Positions 2,931 to 32,647 of a stretch of 64,000 nucleotides of DNA are shown piece by piece. A program made the translations under genes and the position numbers. The stretch comes from Plasmodiophora brassicae. Lineage: Eukaryota. A model generated the notes under the pieces. It was given only the letters and a program-made list of their open reading frames with translations, made no database searches and was not told the origin of the DNA. Within the stretch, counting starts at the first letter, position 1. The number at the start of each line of letters is the position of its first letter. The stretch is taken from the NCBI GenBank assembly GCA_036867785.1, contig CP145420.1, positions 806,001 through 870,000 on the forward strand, written 5' to 3'.

Positions 2931-4816
2931 ATGAAAGTTGCCACTGTTCCAGTCCCATGCGCTGCCGCCGCGCCGTGTGCCGATCACGAGCTGCTGTTCT
3001 CTGGGGCGTCGTTGGGCCCGTCCAAAGCCGATGTCAATGCGTCTGCTGAGGGCGTCCGTGGCAGCCGCAGCCATCCCCGCTGCCCTTGTCATTCCAAACA
3101 CTCCGACGTCAGCCCGCGGTGGAGATCTTCGCGTATCCTGCCGTCGCTCGCTCTCCTTCTGGCGCCTGTCCTTCTCATGGGCGTAAGTGTGGCTTGCAAA
3201 TCGTCGTAATACTAATTGCCCCACCTCTTGGATATGACCGTGCGCGTAGGTTGTGCCGGTGGTGACCTCGGCGTATCCGCCGATGGTGACCCCGAGGTCT
3301 CCGCTGCAAATCCTGGACGCGGCGAACTTTCAGGGCGATGGGTGTCCGAGCCAGGATATTGTAGACAGCGCGGTGGTCTATCTTAAGCAAAAGGTCCTTC
3401 AAGCCTACGATTTCCAAGTACTACCGCACCTCGCCAGTACGCTTTCGAAGCGCAGGACGTATAATCGTATGAGATTGCCATTCACATCACGAACCATAGC
3501 CGTCTCTGAGACAGCAATTCCTGCCAACAGGTGTGCTCTCCGCCATTGCTGTTGCTCTGCAACGACGCCAAGAATGCATTAGCGGCTACAATGCCAGATC
3601 TACGGCAATGCTTTTGCACTCGCTTGCCAGGGGACGCATCAATAGGCCCACCCTGCTCAATGCCCTCGGCAAACATGCGCTGACCATCATGACGCTGTTC
3701 GACGCAGAGGATGTCGCCAATACGGCGTGGGCGTTCGCGGCATTGTCGATCAAGAACCACGACCTGTTCAATGCCCTTGCCAATCGTGCCCTGTCGATTA
3801 TGACAGAATTCAAGGCACACGGTGTCGCCAGTACGGCGTGGGCGTTCGCGACATTGTCGATCGAGAATCGCGACCTGTTCAGCGCCCTAGCCGATCGTGC
3901 GCTCGCGACCATGAGGCACTTCAGAGCACAAGGCGTCGCCAATACGGCGTGGGCGTTCGCGACAATGTCGATCGAGAACCGCGCCTTGTTCAATGCCCTT
4001 GCCGATCGTGCGCTCGCGACCATGAGGCACCTCAGCGCACAGGGCGTCGCCAATACGGCGTGGGCGTTCGCGACCTTGTCGATCGAGAACCGCGCCCTGT
4101 TCAGCGCCCTTGCCGGTCGTACGCTGTCGATCGTGACGGAATTCAACCCACAGGATGTCGCCAATACGGCATGGGCATTCTCCGTTGTTCGTTTCCACCC
4201 CGATGATAGTGTCTTTGAAGCCATTGTCGGCCGCGTGTGCTTCTTCTTTTCGAGTGGTTCGTTCGCCGATGAACAACTTGTACAGCTGCATCTATGGCGA
4301 CTCTCCGTTGGGGAACGCGCTTTCGATTCGGTTGTCGACGGCGTCTGTCACGTGAAGACGGACGTGATGGTGAGCAGTTTCAGGGATGCGATGTCCCGCC
4401 AGGGGCAAGGTACGTCACGGATGGAGCATGAAGTAGTCGGTGCTCTTCAGCGAATGTACTCACCCGGTTCTGTTCATCGTGGCGCCTTCTGCGAGATCAC
4501 CGGTTATTCTCTTGATGCCGCTTGTGTATTGCCGTTTGGACGTCGCATGGTCGCTGTCGAAGTGAATGACCGTACACACTTCCTCCGAGATTGCCATTCC
4601 GATGGTTTCACGTCGATCAATGGGGCTTCCAGGCTGAAGCGCCACTTACTCGGGCGGTACGGCTGGACAGTGGTCGACGTGAATTTCGGAGACTGGGACA
4701 AGGCGAACGGGATCCCTGAACAGCAACAGGATTTACTTCTGAAGCTTCTGCGGCGTACGTATTCAGATGAACAAAGGGCAGCGTCGACTCCTGGCTACTA
4801 CAATATCGAGGCGTGA
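2931..4816 (+). CDS. Heptatricopeptide-like (37-aa) repeat protein with C-terminal RAP domain (FASTK-like); putative introns 3183-3249 and 3467-3530
   Basis: Five tandem (D/G)VA(N/S)TAWAF repeats spaced 37 aa apart. C-terminal YSLD...AVEVND.THF...LKRHLL...GWTVVDVNFGDW. Both GT-AG introns keep the frame. Confidence 0.85.
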
Positions 4817-14220: not shown

Positions 14221-15138
14221 ATGGTGGCCGCACCGTATCGGATCGGGGTCGACCTGGGCGGTACCAAGACCGAGGTCGTCGTGGTCGACGGCGCCGGGGT
14301 CGAGCACGTTCGCCGTCGAGTCCCTAGTGCACGCGACGCCTACGATGGGACGCTATCGGTCATCAGGGACCTGGTTGCCGACGCCGAACGCGACTGCCGG
14401 GCGGCGACGGGCGCCCCGATCGGTGTCGGCATACCCGGGTCGATCAGCAAGCGCACGGGCCGCGTCAAGAACGCCAACTCGACGTGGCTGAACCGGCGGC
14501 CGCTCGCTGCCGACCTGAAGGCGTTGTTCCCCGGACGGGACGTCGTCGTTGCGAACGACGCGAACTGCCTGGCGTTGAGTGAGGCGACAGACGGGGCCGG
14601 CGCTGGATACGATCTCGTATTCGCTGCCATTCTGGGTACAGGATGCGGTGCCGGCCTAGCGTACCGACGACAGGTACTGCCGGGCGCCAACGGTGTCGCT
14701 GGCGAATGGGGCCATAACCCGTTGCCATGGGACGACGACGCCGTTCCCCGCCAATGCTACTGTGGGCGCACGAATTGCATTGAAATGTTCCTGTCGGGAC
14801 CAGCCCTGACAGAAACGTACGCCACGATGACGGCTGGCGCTCGCCTGTCCGCTAAGGACATTGTCCAACTGGCAGACGATCGCCCAGACAGCGACGCTGG
14901 ACGAGCGCTGGACGCGTACCTGGACGCACTGACCAAGTCTCTGGCATCGGTGATCAACGTGGTCGACCCGGACGCGATCGTCCTGGGTGGTGGCATGTCC
15001 AATTGCAGAGCGATCTACGATCGGGTGCCGGCCAGCCTCGAGCGGTTCGTCTTCGGCGGCGAATGTGAGACCCCGGTGCGACCTGCCCGGCATGGTGATT
15101 CCAGTGGCGTTCGTGGAGCCGCATGGTTGAACCCGTAG
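14221..15138 (+). CDS. mak: ROK-family sugar kinase, bacterial Mak (manno/fructokinase)-like, intronless
   Basis: RIGVDLGGTKTEV, VGIPGSIS..TGRVKNANSTWLN, ANDANCLALSEATDGAG, ILGTGCGAG, AGEWGHNPLPW, CYCG...CIE, DPDAIVLGGGMSN, HGDSSGVRGAAWL. Confidence 0.92.
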   Translation: MVAAPYRIGVDLGGTKTEVVVVDGAGVEHVRRRVPSARDAYDGTLSVIRDLVADAERDCRAATGAPIGVGIPGSISKRTGRVKNANSTWLNRRPLAADLKALFPGRDVVVANDANCLALSEATDGAGAGYDLVFAAILGTGCGAGLAYRRQVLPGANGVAGEWGHNPLPWDDDAVPRQCYCGRTNCIEMFLSGPALTETYATMTAGARLSAKDIVQLADDRPDSDAGRALDAYLDALTKSLASVINVVDPDAIVLGGGMSNCRAIYDRVPASLERFVFGGECETPVRPARHGDSSGVRGAAWLNP

Positions 15139-28727: not shown

Positions 28728-30279
28728 TCAGGCGAACTGCTCCATATCAGTGTGGTTGGAAAGCGGCTTGCCGATCGCGTACACTTCGAAGCCGATCTTT
28801 CGCAACGCCTCGTGGTCAAGGATGTTGCGGCCGTCGAAGACGAACGTCGGCCGCTCCATCACAGCATAAACCTTCGCCCAGTCGAGCGTGCGGAACTCAT
28901 CCCACTCAGTCATGATGGCGATGGCGTGCGACCCCTTGGCGGCATCGTACGCATTCGCATGCATCGTGACGACATCATTGTGGTTAACGTCCTGCGCCAG
29001 CTGGGGCTCGTAGTACTGCAGGTCGGAGAAGACCTGATCCGACTCGACCTTGGGGTCGTACACCGCGAGGCAAGCGCGATCTTCCATGAGGTGCTTCGCG
29101 ACGTACACGGCCGCCGTCTCACGCGTGTCACCAGTGTCCTTCTTGAACGCCCAGCCGAGGATTGCAATACGCTTGCCGGAAACCGTGTTGAACATCGTCT
29201 TGATGATGTTGCGAGCGAACCGTGACTTCTGGTAGTCGTTCATGAGGACGACTTGGTCCCAGTAACGGGCGACCTCGTCGAGGCCGAACGATTCGCACAG
29301 GTAGACGAGGTTCAGGATGTCCTTCTGGAAACAGCTGCCGCCGAATCCGACAGACGAGTTCAGGAAACGCGAGCCAATTCGTGAGTCCCGCCCGATAGCG
29401 TATGCGACCTCGGAGACATCCGCACCGGTCACCTATGCCAGGCATGTCAACCCTCTGGAGAACCACATGTACCTGCGAACGACGTACCTCACACAGTGCC
29501 GAGATCGAGTTGATAGACGAGATACGCTGGGCAAGGAACGCGTTCGCGACGAGCTTGGAGAGTTCAGAGCTCCACAGGTTCGTCGTAATGACGTTCTCGC
29601 GGGGAACCCAGTGTTCGTACACCCAGACAAGACGGGCAACAGCCGCTTGGCCGGCTTCAGTTGTGGGCCCCCCAATCAGAACACGATCAGGCTTGAACAG
29701 GTCGGCAACCGCCGTGCCTTCGGCCAGGAACTCTGGGTTCGACAGGATCTGGTACCGGTGGCCGTTCTCGTTCGCATGAAGGACACGCGCCATGGAATGC
29801 GCCGTCCGCACTGGCAGCGTGCTCTTCTCCACGACGATCTTCGGGCCATTCGACACACGCGCGATGTGTCGCGCCGCCAGCTCCCAGTTCTTCAGGTTCG
29901 CAGCACGCCCAGCACCGACGCCATGCGTTTTCGTAGGCGTATTCACCGACACGAATATGATTTCGCATTCGCGAATCGCCGCGTCGATGTCAGTCGTGAA
30001 GAACAAGTTCACGCCGCGCGACTTCTCGACCTAGAAGCGACAGTCAGGGCACTTGAGCAGCGTCAGCTGGGCGGTAAACAAGTGGGGTACCAGTTCCTGC
30101 AGTCCGGGTTCGTAGATCGGCAGGTTCGACGAGTTCCAGGCCGCGATCTGTTTCGGGTTGATGTCGCAGACGGTGACCTTGACGTTCGGGCACTTGGCCG
30201 CGATCACGGCCATCGTTGGCCCGCCGACGTACCCGGCTCCCAGGCAGCAGATCTTGCATTCGAACGTCGGCATGACCAT
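28728..30279 (-). CDS. UGDH: UDP-glucose 6-dehydrogenase, spliced
   Basis: [94 protein letters not shown]. Confidence 0.97.
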
Positions 30280-30610
30280 TAGTCGCTTCAAGGGAGACGG
30301 CGCTGATCCCGATCCACGACACTCAGTCCAACCTGTGCCCGTCTCGCGTTCAGGCCTCACGTCAGACTGAAACGCAGCGCAACCAACGTGGGCCTGTTAA
30401 AAATATCTCCAGAGGCGCCTTTGTTTTGCTGTCGGGTCCCTGGCCACGTCACTGGTGCCGGACGCGCGACGTGTCCCAACTCCCAACCCACCACGCTGCG
30501 GCAGCAGCCAGCCGGGGCGGACTCGGCGCACCCTCTGTCTGGCGGCTGCGCTGGCGACGAAACCATGTCGTGCGATAATAAATACGCGGGCGTTTAACCA
30601 ATGGACCCCT

Positions 30611-32647
30611 CTACCAGAAGTCCTCACAGGAGCACTTCCCGTCGCGGAAGTGATGGTGCCTGGTCGAATCGCGGACAAAGACCTCGCGGGCGAAGACGAC
30701 GGAGACGTGCTTGATTGCCTCGTGGCAGTCGGGGCAGACGCGCAGGTTCTTCGCCAGGCGAATGGGCTCGCCGGGCGGCACGCTCCGCAAGGCATGGGCG
30801 ACGGCGATCTTCTCGCTGTGACCGTAGACGGCGCGCCGCGCCTCGTCGTCCGTCCGTGCCGACCTCGTCACGTATGACAAGTCGGGGATGTACCCGTGCT
30901 CGACCAACTGATTCATCATGCTGGCGTGCATCGCGGCCAGGTCACGATCATTGCGGAGCCGCCTGTCGTTCGACGAGAAGTCCAGGCAGCAATCGGCGAG
31001 TTGCAGCGACGTCTGCCCGGATGCCTTGACGATCCCTCGGGTTCGGACCTCGTGACGCAAACGAGCCACGTCGGCCTGGCGCCCAGCCCGATAGTACATG
31101 TTCGACATGGAGACGTAGGCGCTGGCCAGGTCCTGGGTACCCGCGTCCGAACGCGACACGATGGCCGAGAAGGCGCGTTCGGCGCGATCCAGGTCGCGAT
31201 GCTTGACGCAGGCGGCCAGCACCATGTTCCACGAGATGACGCCCGCAGCAGGAGACGAGGACGCAAGCTTCTCAGCGGCATTCAGGTCCCCCAATCGACC
31301 GTGCATGTCGATCATGATGTTCACGTGTTGGTAATCGGCGGCAACGTTCCAGACGGTGGCGAATTCGGACAGGAACGCGTAGGCACGCGCCGTATCGCCA
31401 GCACGACAGCACCCGGTAAGGAGCGCAACGAGAGTCGACCTCGTCGGTCGCAGGTTCACCGCCTTCAGCCGTTCGTATACGCCGACCGCGTCGTCAAGCA
31501 GGCCTTGGTGCGCATAGGCGGTCATCATTGAATTGAACACGGCGGCGTCGGGTGTGAAAGCCGCACATCGGTCCTCGAACGCGGCTCTGGCACCGACAAG
31601 GTTGCTGCAGTGGCCGTAGGAGGCCACCAGCGCGCTGACCACGAAGTCGTCGTGCAGAAGGGACCTCGCTCGCGCATGCTCATGAAGCGCCTGGACGCCC
31701 GACAGGTTCGAGCAGCGCCCACACGCCTCGATCAGGCTGGTGAACACGCGGACGTCGACCGGGGCGTTACGCTGCAGCATGGTGTTGAACAGCGAGAGCG
31801 CCACAGAGATGTGCGCGTGCTTGCTGACGGCGAACAGGACGCGATTGTACGTGCTCTCGGTGGGTGCCAAGCCGAACGTGTCGTGCATGAGCGTCAGCGT
31901 GCTGACCGCTAGCCCGAATCGCTTCTGCTGCAGCAGCGCCTTGATCAGGTTGAAGAACGTCGGCTGACCGGCGTCGTGCGGGGCACGGTTCGACCGGAAC
32001 AGGTCCAGCATCTGTTCGGCGGCGTCAGCGCCCGCCGGGCACCCTGATTCCGCACAGCACGCCGCGACAATGGTCACCAGCTTCTTGGTGAACGCCACGT
32101 CGGACGCGATGGCATGTGACAGCAGAGGGATCGCTAACGCGGGCTGTTTCGACGCCCGGCATAGGTCGAAGACACCGAAGACGGCGATGGGCGTTCGCGG
32201 GCCACATTCCTTGTACAGGTCAACCGCTTCCTGAACGGGCGGAGGGTTCGCCGCCTTACAAGCGGACAGGAACGTGCAGAACAGGGCCTCGGTGATGGGA
32301 ACCTGGCGCCTGCCGGCGACACGAAGCACGTCGGCGGCCTTGTGCGGTTGGACGCGCCGGCAGAATTGCATCATCGGGTGGAACAGGCGGACGTCGACCG
32401 GGCACCCGGACTGCAGGACATGCTCGAACGCCGACCAGACCCGCACGGGATCGTCGTCGTGCAACGCCAGCTTGGCGGCAATGGCCGGCGTCGGATGCCG
32501 AAGGAACGTGGCATGCATGCGCAGCGGCGACCCGGTCGCGCTGTCGCCCACGTACGACGACAGCGCCCGCCATCGTCGTCGTGCAGGACGCCGCGAGAGG
32601 CTCTGGCCCGACAGCCATGCGATCCTCTGGCAGGCGACCCGCGTCAT
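30611..32647 (-). CDS. PLS-class PPR protein with C-terminal DYW deaminase domain (ends DFW), intronless
   Basis: PPR motifs (VVSALVASYGHCS, FNSMMTAYAHQG, MIDMHGRLGDL), GYIPD, HSEKIA, KNLRVCPDCH, HHFRDGKCSCEDFW. Confidence 0.93.
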   Translation of the reverse strand: MTRVACQRIAWLSGQSLSRRPARRRWRALSSYVGDSATGSPLRMHATFLRHPTPAIAAKLALHDDDPVRVWSAFEHVLQSGCPVDVRLFHPMMQFCRRVQPHKAADVLRVAGRRQVPITEALFCTFLSACKAANPPPVQEAVDLYKECGPRTPIAVFGVFDLCRASKQPALAIPLLSHAIASDVAFTKKLVTIVAACCAESGCPAGADAAEQMLDLFRSNRAPHDAGQPTFFNLIKALLQQKRFGLAVSTLTLMHDTFGLAPTESTYNRVLFAVSKHAHISVALSLFNTMLQRNAPVDVRVFTSLIEACGRCSNLSGVQALHEHARARSLLHDDFVVSALVASYGHCSNLVGARAAFEDRCAAFTPDAAVFNSMMTAYAHQGLLDDAVGVYERLKAVNLRPTRSTLVALLTGCCRAGDTARAYAFLSEFATVWNVAADYQHVNIMIDMHGRLGDLNAAEKLASSSPAAGVISWNMVLAACVKHRDLDRAERAFSAIVSRSDAGTQDLASAYVSMSNMYYRAGRQADVARLRHEVRTRGIVKASGQTSLQLADCCLDFSSNDRRLRNDRDLAAMHASMMNQLVEHGYIPDLSYVTRSARTDDEARRAVYGHSEKIAVAHALRSVPPGEPIRLAKNLRVCPDCHEAIKHVSVVFAREVFVRDSTRHHHFRDGKCSCEDFW

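What the first reader, a model, noticed from the sequence alone, without database searches (positions are those of the whole stretch)
30611..32647. DYW-type PPR deaminase in a non-plant genome: candidate organellar C-to-U RNA editing system
Seen: an intronless 678-aa PPR array ending in HSEK, CPDCH and HHFRDGKCSCEDFW, preceded by an Arg/Ser-rich, acid-free N-terminus (MTRVACQRIAWLSGQSLSRRPARRRWRALSS). Established: PLS-DYW proteins are the site-specific cytidine deaminases of land-plant organelles and occur only sporadically elsewhere (for example Naegleria, Physarum, bdelloid rotifers). Inference: this protist-like genome imports a DYW editor into mitochondria. That would imply unrecognised mitochondrial editing or another RNA-processing role, with either ancient retention or horizontal gain. 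The PG box is degenerate (KASG), so activity is not guaranteed.
Basis: partly seen in the sequence, partly recalled or inferred. Interest (0 to 1): 0.9.

Follow-up and report, generated by a model that had tools for sequence, protein, structure and literature searches.

The report
Clubroot parasite's plant-type RNA-editing gene
This is a real, intact gene for a plant-style PPR-DYW RNA-editing protein in the genome of the clubroot parasite Plasmodiophora brassicae, one of a family of about forty such genes, and whether the parasite's mitochondria actually edit their RNA remains untested.

Summary
ORF 30611..32647 (-) encodes a 678-aa protein with a full-length DYW deaminase domain (Pfam 3.8e-32). 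It is co-linear over residues 281-678 with a solved synthetic PPR-DYW editing factor (9kfx, 9.2e-88).

The window is Plasmodiophora brassicae (Rhizaria), not plant DNA:
- A second PPR-DYW gene in the window is 98% identical to P. brassicae PBRA_007664.
- GC3 of the gene is 0.83, like its neighbours.

The gene belongs to a lineage-specific family:
- I assigned 56 rows to it; 21 of the 24 clusters with a name check are named P. brassicae.
- 54 of 56 rows share a conserved 215-aa N-terminal PPR-like module that none of 99 plant-like or other rows has.
- Of 40 DYW-bearing members, 21 keep HxE and CxxC, this one included, and 19 have lost them.

An AlphaFold model (pLDDT 93.2) shows 12 helical hairpins in P-L-S order, then E1, E2 and a DYW fold. 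Residues 1-36 are disordered, Arg-rich and free of acidic residues.

Mitochondrial C-to-U editing is the best reading (about 0.55) but was not tested: no mtDNA was available and read laying did not complete. DYW domains in Rhizaria are already reported (2025, 2026 papers). This is a new member of a known kind.

The parts
30611..32647 (-). Complete intronless coding sequence (678 codons plus stop) of a PPR-E1-E2-DYW protein (P0001)
   Evidence: ORF listing and translation. Pfam DYW_deaminase 3.8e-32 plus PPR families. PDB 9kfx 9.2e-88. AlphaFold2 mean pLDDT 93.2, pTM 0.85.
32540..32647 (-). Residues 1-36: presequence-like leader, Arg/Ser-rich with no acidic residue before D35, predicted disordered
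   Evidence: 8 Arg and 0 Asp/Glu in the first 34 residues. The longest uninterrupted hydrophobic run in the first 40 is 4 residues, so there is no signal-peptide core. pLDDT is below 50 for residues 1-22 and 24-36. Mitochondrial targeting is inferred, not tested.
31859..32515 (-). Residues 45-263: family-specific N-terminal module of six PPR-like helical hairpins
   Evidence: No Pfam hit even at E up to 10. Six helix pairs in the model. PPR-like by ESM Atlas features and structure. Matched at 70% coverage or more in 54 of 56 family rows and 0 of 99 other rows. Identity to P0001 is 0.39 in family rows against 0.12 in plant-like rows.
31241..31858 (-). Residues 264-469: PLS array P1(35 aa)-L1(35)-S1(34)-P2(35)-L2(36)-S2(31). 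Residues at position 5/last are ND, TD, SD, NT, VD, NG.
   Evidence: Motif borders come from helix starts in the model. Co-linear with the solved synthetic PLS-DYW protein 9kfx.
31025..31240 (-). Residues 470-541: E1 and E2 helical motifs
   Evidence: Pfam E_motif covers residues 483-547 (3.2e-06). Helix pairs 470-497 and 504-537. Aligned to the E1/E2 part of 9kfx.
30614..31024 (-). Residues 542-678: DYW cytidine-deaminase domain. Divergent PG box at S543-G544; H610-x-E612; C638-x-x-C641-H642; H664-666; C672-x-C674; C-terminal DFW.
   Evidence: Pfam profile covered 1-93 of 93. Residue table from the family alignment. The PG-box strands 545-549 and 554-558 form in the model. Foldseek: DYW1 domain 7w86 TM 0.90 and rmsd 2.1 A; OTP86 DYW 7o4e_B TM 0.86.
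57999..60362 (+). Second, paralogous PPR-E-DYW gene in the same window (787 aa from the first Met; P0011 printed from an upstream GTG). It shows that the finding is part of a gene family.
   Evidence: Pfam DYW_deaminase 6e-23. HSEK, CPDCH and CSCADYW are intact. 731 of 749 residues identical to P. brassicae PBRA_007664. About 37.5% identical to P0001. Best N-module match to P0001 at 198 bits.

Best explanation
This is a nuclear gene of the clubroot parasite Plasmodiophora brassicae (Rhizaria, Phytomyxea). It encodes a PLS-class pentatricopeptide-repeat protein ending in E1, E2 and a catalytically complete DYW cytidine-deaminase domain.

Shown here:
- The architecture: a disordered Arg-rich leader, six family-specific PPR-like hairpins, a P-L-S-P2-L2-S2 array, E1, E2, then DYW.
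- Conservation of both zinc sites and of the catalytic Glu.
- Membership of a lineage-specific family of about 40 DYW-bearing paralogs.
- Native base composition.

Inferred:
- The leader directs the protein into the mitochondrion. To my knowledge (recalled) that is the only genome-bearing organelle of this plastid-less organism.
- There the PPR tract binds a short sequence just upstream of a specific cytidine in a mitochondrial transcript. As recalled from plant editing factors, the S2 motif sits opposite nucleotide -4.
- The DYW domain then deaminates that C to U.

The position-5/last residues are P1 ND, S1 SD, P2 NT and S2 NG. By the recalled plant PPR code these suggest roughly 5'-U-n-G-Y-n-Y-nnn-C-3'. 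Identity and architecture: about 0.95. Editing as the function: about 0.55.
For: Architecture:
- Pfam DYW_deaminase 3.8e-32 over the full profile, plus PPR and E motifs.
- 9.2e-88 to the solved synthetic PPR-DYW 9kfx, with residues 281-678 co-linear with its P2-L2-S2-E1-E2-DYW part.
- AlphaFold2 pLDDT 93.2. Foldseek top hit is 9kfx_A at 2.4e-26, and the DYW domain superposes on DYW1 (TM 0.90) and OTP86 (TM 0.86).
- Motif lengths 35-35-34-35-36-31 follow the P-L-S rhythm.

Catalysis:
- H610, E612, C638, C641, H642, the HHH at 664-666, C672 and C674 are all present. Meanwhile 19 of 40 DYW-bearing paralogs have lost HxE or CxxC. Loss is therefore tolerated in this family, and retention here is informative.

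RNA specificity:
- Positions 5 and last of the P and S motifs are mostly T/N/S and D/N/S/T/G across paralogs and differ between them. Plant site-specificity factors show the same pattern.

Targeting:
- The leader has 8 Arg, no acidic residue in the first 34 positions, no hydrophobic core, and is disordered.
- The second window gene has a similar Arg-rich leader, with its first acidic residue at position 31.

Organism:
- The neighbouring paralog is 98% identical to P. brassicae PBRA_007664.
- 17 of 20 looked-up family clusters, and 4 further hits, are named P. brassicae.

Precedent:
- Naegleria and Acrasis have 11-12 DYW proteins and verified mitochondrial C-to-U sites (PMC4202320, passages).
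- Endomyxan paradinids have PPR-DYW plus C-to-U editing (PMC11946409, passages).
Against: No editing site is known:
- I could not obtain the mitochondrial genome or lay any reads.
- The paper describing the 114,663-bp P. brassicae mtDNA mapped transcriptome data to it, and the passages I read report no editing. 'RNA editing' occurs there only in a cited title (PMC6823432).

Features that weaken the case:
- The mtDNA is 26.2% GC. Fu et al. suggest that very low GC could explain the low editing activity (two confirmed sites each) in the AT-rich mtDNAs of Naegleria and Acrasis.
- The PG box differs from the plant and heterolobosean consensus PGxSWIEVxGxxHxF at all but the G and F positions. To my recollection plant editing factors need this box.
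- Only six PLS motifs precede E1. That gives low predicted specificity unless the N-terminal module also binds RNA.
- Half of the family is catalytically degenerate, so the family as a whole cannot consist only of autonomous deaminases.
- Targeting rests on composition alone.
Confidence: 0.55

Rival explanations
1. The protein is a mitochondrial RNA-binding factor with a job other than editing, such as intron splicing, transcript end formation, cleavage or stabilisation. The DYW domain would then serve as a structural, RNA-binding or nuclease-like module rather than a deaminase.
For: - P. brassicae mtDNA is strikingly intron-rich (54 introns, 41 of them in 12 respiratory-chain genes). It also has unusual splice borders and alternative start codons (PMC6823432, passages), so it needs many RNA-processing factors.
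- 19 of 40 DYW-bearing paralogs lack HxE or CxxC.
- Acrasis and Naegleria carry 11-12 DYW proteins for two known sites each. The authors of PMC4202320 suggest other roles such as cleavage or splicing.
- The PG box is divergent.
- No editing is reported for this mtDNA.
Against: This particular member keeps every catalytic and zinc ligand, although the family demonstrably tolerates their loss. The DYW domain superposes on active plant domains. Its C-terminal P2-L2-S2-E1-E2-DYW block is co-linear with an editing factor solved on its target RNA.
Confidence: 0.3
2. The gene is a decaying or functionless paralog of the expanded family.
For: The family is large and many members have degenerate active sites. 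P0001 has the shortest PLS array I examined among the full-length members. Its PG box lacks the Pro, and it also lacks the His that sits next to the final Phe in several paralogs.
Against: - The 678-codon frame is open, with the complete domain order.
- All catalytic residues are intact.
- The fold is predicted with very high confidence from a 57-row alignment.
- GC3 is 0.83, in the range of neighbouring genes.
- The identical protein was seen on 3 contigs.
Confidence: 0.05
3. The protein is delivered into the host plant cell and acts on host mitochondrial or plastid transcripts, as an effector that mimics the host's own editing factors.
For: P. brassicae lives inside plant cells and the protein is of the plant editing-factor type. 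Infected Arabidopsis roots show a night-time rise of host PPR and 'RNA modification' transcripts (PMC13247141, passages).
Against: - There is no signal-peptide-like hydrophobic core; the longest hydrophobic run in the first 40 residues is 4.
- The family forms its own group, split from 45 plant-like rows by a 100% SH-aLRT branch.
- It carries an N-terminal module that no plant-like row has (0 of 99).
- Its PG box differs from the plant form.
- The cited paper concerns host genes only.
Confidence: 0.03
4. The locus is plant (host) DNA in the assembly, or a very recent transfer from the host.
For: The best matches outside the family are land-plant PLS-DYW proteins: Diphasiastrum, Selaginella and Ginkgo.
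Against: - Those plant matches are only 24-31% identical.
- The gene's GC is 0.65 and its GC3 0.83, like the adjacent H2A gene (0.88).
- It lies 137 bp from a histone H2A gene and about 300 bp from a UDP-glucose dehydrogenase gene in a compact protist-style array.
- The paralog 25 kb away is 98% identical to a named P. brassicae protein.
- The nearest relatives are P. brassicae paralogs.
Confidence: 0.01

Closest known systems
Land-plant PLS-class PPR-E1-E2-DYW organellar RNA editing factors (solved examples: synthetic PPR-DYW on its target RNA, PDB 9kfx; OTP86 DYW domain, 7o4e; DYW1 DYW domain, 7w86)
   Same: The order P-L-S...P2-L2-S2-E1-E2-DYW with plant-like motif lengths. HxE and CxxCH catalytic zinc site, the second H/CxC site and a DFW tail. 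Sequence match 9.2e-88 to 9kfx. Structural match TM 0.86-0.90 on the DYW domain. Intronless gene.
   Different: Only 22-28% identical to the plant-like rows of alignment A1. It carries a conserved 215-aa N-terminal module of six PPR-like hairpins that 0 of 99 plant-like or other rows have. The PG box reads SGQTSLQL...L.F instead of PGxSWIEV...HxF. Only two PLS triplets. The host organism has no plastid (recalled).
DYW-type PPR proteins of heterolobosean protists (Naegleria gruberi, Acrasis kona), where mitochondrial C-to-U editing is verified
   Same: A non-plant protist with a lineage-specific expansion of nuclear DYW-type PPR genes and an AT-rich mitochondrial genome (PMC4202320; PMC6823432).
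   Different: Those proteins keep the plant PG box and number 11-12 per genome. Here the family has about 40 DYW-bearing members, with a divergent PG box, a common N-terminal module, and about half of the active sites lost. I had no sequences from these protists, so no direct comparison or tree was possible.
PPR-DYW proteins of paradinids (Ascetosporea, Endomyxa, Rhizaria), reported together with massive mitochondrial A-to-I and C-to-U editing (PMC11946409)
   Same: The same rhizarian subgroup (Endomyxa) as Phytomyxea. A DYW domain with conserved H, E and two Cys, and predicted mitochondrial localisation.
   Different: Paradinids yielded one and three DYW sequences, said to share a deletion with fungal DYW proteins. 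That paper does not mention Plasmodiophora (0 occurrences). I could not align its sequences.
Plasmodiophora brassicae paralogs annotated 'DYW domain-containing protein' (for example PBRA_007664, PBRA_004378, PBRA_002194, PBRA_001489)
   Same: The same N-terminal module, PLS-E-DYW plan and PG-box flavour; 33-43% identity.
   Different: No paralog is more than 43% identical to P0001. Array length varies, with proteins of 621 to 1189 aa. P0001 keeps its active site, and about half of the others do not.

Membership tests
PLS-class PPR-DYW RNA editing factors | Tandem PPR motifs in P-L-S order (about 35, 35-36 and 31-32 aa), ending in P2-L2-S2 | tested here: met
   Helix-pair borders in the AlphaFold2 model give 35-35-34-35-36-31 aa. 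Co-linear with the PLS protein 9kfx. Pfam PPR_2 5.4e-26.
PLS-class PPR-DYW RNA editing factors | E1 and E2 helical motifs between the PPR array and the deaminase | tested here: met
   Pfam E_motif 3.2e-06, 27.7 bits against a cut-off of 27.3, which is marginal. Two helix pairs at 470-497 and 504-537. Aligned to E1/E2 of 9kfx.
PLS-class PPR-DYW RNA editing factors | DYW deaminase domain with the zinc-binding catalytic signature HxE(x)nCxxC | tested here: met
   H610, E612, C638 and C641. Pfam DYW_deaminase 3.8e-32 over profile 1-93 of 93. TM 0.90 to 7w86 and 0.86 to 7o4e_B.
PLS-class PPR-DYW RNA editing factors | Second zinc site (His plus CxC) and the C-terminal D-Y-W tripeptide | tested here: met
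   H664-666, C672 and C674. The tail is DFW (Y to F), a variant also seen in 1 of 9 plant-like rows and in 3 of 40 family rows, P0001 among them.
PLS-class PPR-DYW RNA editing factors | PG box (PGxSWIEVxGxxHxF) at the start of the DYW domain | tested here: inconclusive
   Only the G and the final F match: SGQTSLQLADCCLDF. The two beta strands of the box still form in the model (E545-549, E554-558; mean pLDDT 92 and 89 for the 10-residue blocks 541-550 and 551-560). The effect on activity is unknown.
PLS-class PPR-DYW RNA editing factors | Import into a genome-bearing organelle | tested here: inconclusive
   A presequence-like leader by composition and disorder. No targeting predictor or localisation data were available.
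PLS-class PPR-DYW RNA editing factors | Site-specific C-to-U conversion in organellar transcripts of the organism | not testable with these tools
   No mitochondrial genome was held, and read laying was unreachable in 8 attempts. No report was found in searches.
Plasmodiophora-type PPR-DYW family (defined here) | Conserved N-terminal module of about 215 aa directly after the leader | tested here: met
   54 of 56 family rows against 0 of 99 other rows match residues 45-265 at 70% coverage or more. The two misses are a truncated row (P0060) and a 305-aa fragment (P0118).
Plasmodiophora-type PPR-DYW family (defined here) | DYW domains group apart from land-plant DYW domains | tested here: met
   41 family rows are split from 45 plant-like rows by a branch with SH-aLRT 100. 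This is a quick LG+G4 tree of 86 rows by 153 columns, using 45 of the 81 available other rows. No other protist, fungal or rotifer sequences were included.

The most novel reading that the evidence does not exclude
P. brassicae runs a plant-like mitochondrial C-to-U editing system built from about 40 paralogs that all share one N-terminal docking or RNA-binding module. About half of them have dead deaminase sites. These would act as pure specificity factors and borrow catalysis in trans from intact members such as this one. That would be a parallel, evolved independently in a rhizarian parasite, of the plant arrangement in which E-type factors recruit DYW1/DYW2-type deaminases. The intron-rich, hard-to-annotate mtDNA would then owe some of its odd start codons and frame problems to unrecognised editing.
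Probability: 0.25. Interest if true: 0.65.

Novelty: new member of a known kind. Interest (0 to 1): 0.42.

Why it matters
P. brassicae causes clubroot, a major disease of brassica crops. Its 114.7-kb mitochondrial genome is described as difficult to annotate: 54 introns, non-canonical splice borders and alternative start codons (PMC6823432).

A family of about forty plant-type editing-factor genes predicts that some mitochondrial codons are corrected at the RNA level. That would change the gene models and would add a second rhizarian lineage with DYW-linked editing.

The family's features offer a natural experiment on how DYW editing systems diversify outside plants:
- a shared N-terminal module;
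- a non-plant PG box;
- about half of the active sites lost.

Against this, DYW proteins in protists have been known since 2010, and in Rhizaria since 2025-2026. These P. brassicae proteins already carry the automatic name 'DYW domain-containing protein' in public databases. A specialist would therefore be interested rather than astonished.

Tried and rejected
Tools that gave nothing:
- Whole-genome search: no genome is held for this window.
- A word-indexed homolog search on the DYW region (residues 545-678) found only one unnamed plant-like protein. The same search on the N-terminal module (45-265) found only one unnamed Logan protein. Both were limited by the 5-residue word index and say nothing about distribution.

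Expression:
- The look-up of sequencing runs listed 24 runs. Twenty hold all sampled words, from 9 studies under four coded organism labels plus 'plant metagenome'. No RNA holder is listed.
- Read laying on window:27500-35500 with runs X1, X4, X14 and X12 was sent 8 times. Each time the machine was busy or unreachable, so transcription and the neighbour's introns were not examined.

Papers:
- The J Exp Bot 2023 review and PMC3858438 (the 2013 DYW survey) are not held.
- Table S10 of PMC13386178 lists which Rhizaria carry the 31 DYW domains.
- Searches 'Plasmodiophora'+'DYW' (2 papers, neither relevant) and 'Plasmodiophora'+'C-to-U' (3, none relevant).
- 'Plasmodiophora brassicae'+'mitochondrial genome'+'RNA editing' (11) and 'Spongospora'+'mitochondrial genome'+'editing' (13, 10 listed). 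No listed title or abstract start concerns editing in phytomyxid mitochondria. I read passages of three of these papers (PMC6823432, PMC7194472, PMC13746701).
- 'Plasmodiophora'+'pentatricopeptide' (22 papers) gave one paper noting two P. brassicae PPR genes as differentially expressed (PMC8298192).

Readings rejected:
- Plant contamination or recent transfer, on composition, neighbours and the 98% P. brassicae paralog.
- A signal-peptide effector, on the N-terminal composition.

Left unresolved:
- I considered testing editing indirectly from mitochondrion-encoded protein sequences. No route to those sequences was available.
- The origin of the family (transfer from plants or older inheritance) is not resolved. 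My tree is unrooted and holds only family rows and the best-scoring plant-like rows.
Full report
**Observation.** The ORF lies exactly at 30611..32647 on the minus strand. It starts with ATG and encodes 678 residues. Pfam finds a DYW deaminase domain over the whole profile (3.8e-32, positions 1-93 of 93, residues 585-678). It also finds several PPR families (PPR_2 5.4e-26) and an E motif just above its cut-off. Against solved structures the best match is a synthetic PPR-DYW editing factor crystallised on its target RNA (9kfx, 9.2e-88). Residues 281-678 align end to end with its P2-L2-S2-E1-E2-DYW part, and the isolated DYW domains of DYW1 and OTP86 also match (2.9e-27 and 3.7e-22).

**Organism.** No genome is held for the window, so I identified it through relatives.
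- The best named relatives of the protein are all from Plasmodiophora brassicae.
- The window holds a second PPR-DYW ORF at 57987..60362 (+). Its product is identical at 731 of 749 residues (98%) to P. brassicae e3 protein PBRA_007664.
- A 787-aa member of that same 90% cluster is name-masked and lies on a 1,260,905-bp contig, the length given for the longest contig carrying P0001.
- The gene's GC is 0.65 and its GC3 0.83, like the adjacent histone H2A gene (GC3 0.88).
- It sits 137 bp from that H2A gene and about 300 bp from a UDP-glucose dehydrogenase gene that is broken into three ORF pieces, presumably by short introns.
- Twenty of 24 listed sequencing runs hold all sampled words of the gene. 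They come from nine studies, under four different coded organism labels and 'plant metagenome'. That pattern fits an obligate parasite sequenced inside its hosts. I draw nothing else from that list.

The window is therefore P. brassicae, from a strain other than e3, or an extremely close relative. It is not plant DNA.

**Anatomy.** An AlphaFold2 model from a 57-row alignment has mean pLDDT 93.2 and pTM 0.85.
- Residues 1-22 and 24-36 fall below pLDDT 50. That stretch has 8 Arg, no acidic residue before D35 and no hydrophobic core.
- Fourteen helix pairs follow. The first six (residues 54-263) hit no Pfam family even at E up to 10, but they are PPR-like by language-model features and by structure.
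- The next six measure 35, 35, 34, 35, 36 and 31 residues, the P-L-S-P2-L2-S2 rhythm. E1 and E2 come after them.
- The DYW domain (542-678) has the two PG-box strands, the HxE helix and the CxxC helix.
- Foldseek ranks 9kfx_A first (2.4e-26). It superposes the DYW domain on DYW1 (TM 0.90, rmsd 2.1 A) and on OTP86 (TM 0.86).
- The catalytic and zinc residues are all present: H610, E612, C638, C641, H642, H664-666, C672 and C674. The tail is DFW.

**The PG box.** The PG box is the weak point. Against the plant and heterolobosean consensus PGxSWIEVxGxxHxF (quoted in PMC4202320), the protein reads SGQTSLQLADCCLDF. The P-to-S change alone is unremarkable, since 6 of 9 plant-like rows have AG at those columns. 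The loss of SWIE is shared by the whole family, where many rows read PGRT(S/T)L.L (my reading of the rows).

**The family.** An exhaustive HMMER search found 14,547 proteins at E up to 1e-3. Of the 150 best, about 55 representatives are 33-43% identical to the query. The rest drop to 23-32%.
- I treated 56 rows as the family. That count includes the window's second gene, which is not a search hit.
- Names were checked for 20 clusters. All 10 and 7 of 10 hold a member named P. brassicae. Three are unnamed metagenome proteins.
- Four more family rows were named P. brassicae.
- The best-scoring rows outside the family that I looked up are lycophytes (Diphasiastrum, Selaginella), Ginkgo and four unnamed records.

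Three features set the family apart.
1. Residues 45-265 of P0001 match the N-terminus of 54 of 56 family rows at 70% coverage or more, and none of 99 other rows. The two misses are a truncated row and a fragment. In the alignment this module is 39% identical within the family and 12% in plant-like rows.
2. In a quick maximum-likelihood tree of the last 150 residues, a branch with SH-aLRT 100 splits 41 family rows from 45 plant-like rows. The tree has 86 rows and 153 columns and uses 45 of the 81 available other rows. It is unrooted and has no other protist, fungal or rotifer sequences. It therefore cannot tell transfer from plants from older inheritance.
3. I kept 40 DYW-bearing family rows, dropping the window's second gene as the same gene as P0017. 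Of these, 21 keep both HxE and CxxC and 19 do not: the Glu is lost in 12, the His in 4 and CxxC in 7, with overlaps. P0001 is among the intact ones.

Across paralogs, positions 5 and last of the P and S motifs are mostly the residues that specify bases in plant PPR proteins (T/N/S and D/N/S/T/G), and they differ from paralog to paralog. Alignment of the upstream triplet is less certain, because array lengths differ.

**How it most likely works.** The protein architecture, the intact active site, family membership and native composition are shown. The rest is inferred.
- The Arg-rich disordered leader takes the protein into the mitochondrion. To my knowledge (recalled) this is the only genome-bearing organelle in a phytomyxid.
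- The PPR tract binds single-stranded RNA one base per motif.
- As recalled from plant editing factors, S2 lies opposite position -4 from the target cytidine.
- The DYW domain then deaminates that cytidine.

By the recalled PPR code, ND specifies U, SD specifies G, and N at position 5 favours pyrimidines. This gives about U-n-G-Y-n-Y-nnn-C. The N-terminal repeats carry non-code residue pairs (A/D, H/T, C/T, F/T, T/G, F/T). Because they are conserved across paralogs, I think they serve a common function rather than site recognition.

**Evidence against, and rivals.** No editing site is known for this organism.
- The paper on the 114,663-bp mtDNA mapped transcriptome data to the genome, and the passages I read report no editing. 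It does describe 54 introns, non-canonical splice borders and alternative start codons (PMC6823432).
- That mtDNA is 26.2% GC. Naegleria and Acrasis, also very AT-rich, have 11-12 DYW proteins but only two confirmed sites each. Their authors suggest splicing or cleavage roles for the excess proteins (PMC4202320).
- A non-editing RNA-processing role is therefore the main rival (about 0.3).
- A decaying paralog (0.05), a host-directed effector (0.03) and plant contamination (0.01) are much less likely, for the reasons given in their entries.

**Comparison with the literature.**
- DYW-type PPR proteins outside plants are established for Heterolobosea, Amoebozoa, rotifers, fungi and Malawimonas.
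- A 2025 paper found PPR-DYW proteins together with C-to-U editing in paradinids, which are endomyxan Rhizaria like Plasmodiophora. It does not mention Plasmodiophora (PMC11946409).
- A 2026 survey counts 31 DYW domains in Rhizaria. The species are in a supplementary table I did not see (PMC13386178, section 7 read whole).
- The P. brassicae paralogs already carry the automatic database name 'DYW domain-containing protein'.
- I found no paper in the held library that discusses them. This does not cover subscription journals.

**Verdict.** The presence of such a gene here is a new member of a known kind rather than a new kind. The family-level features deserve a follow-up: a shared N-terminal module, a non-plant PG box, and half of the active sites lost. 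The decisive test is a comparison of RNA and DNA reads on the mitochondrial genome.

Noticed in passing
window 57999-60362 (+): A second complete PPR-E-DYW gene lies about 25 kb from the first. HSEK, CPDCH and CSCADYW are intact and it has an Arg-rich leader. It is 98% identical (731 of 749) to P. brassicae e3 PBRA_007664, which means 18 amino-acid differences between strains in one gene.
   Followed up: partly
family alignment of proteins fetched (not in the window): 19 of 40 DYW-bearing family members have lost the catalytic Glu, the zinc-binding His or the CxxC pair, yet they keep the C-terminal CxC and mostly the DYW tail. This suggests trans-acting catalysis or non-editing roles.
   Followed up: partly
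window 31859-32515 (-) and the N-termini of 54 of 56 family rows: A conserved module of about 215 aa, made of six PPR-like hairpins, has no Pfam match and is absent from all 99 plant-like and other rows examined. Its function is unknown.
   Followed up: partly
window 3533-4816 (+): An ORF with a RAP domain (Pfam 1.6e-08). RAP is another family of organellar RNA-binding proteins.
   Followed up: no
window 28728-30360 (-): A UDP-glucose 6-dehydrogenase gene is split over three ORF pieces in different frames, presumably by two short introns. Both PPR-DYW genes, by contrast, are intronless.
   Followed up: no
proteins P0061, P0118 and P0045 (unnamed metagenome records): These environmental relatives of the family come from unknown organisms. 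P0061 and P0118 have a PG box intermediate between the plant and Plasmodiophora forms, and in the tree they sit on the plant-like side of the midpoint root (SH-aLRT 85).
   Followed up: no
window 14221-15138 (+): An ORF with a strong match to the ROK family of sugar kinases and repressors (4.7e-69). To my recollection this family is mostly bacterial. I did not examine it further.
   Followed up: no
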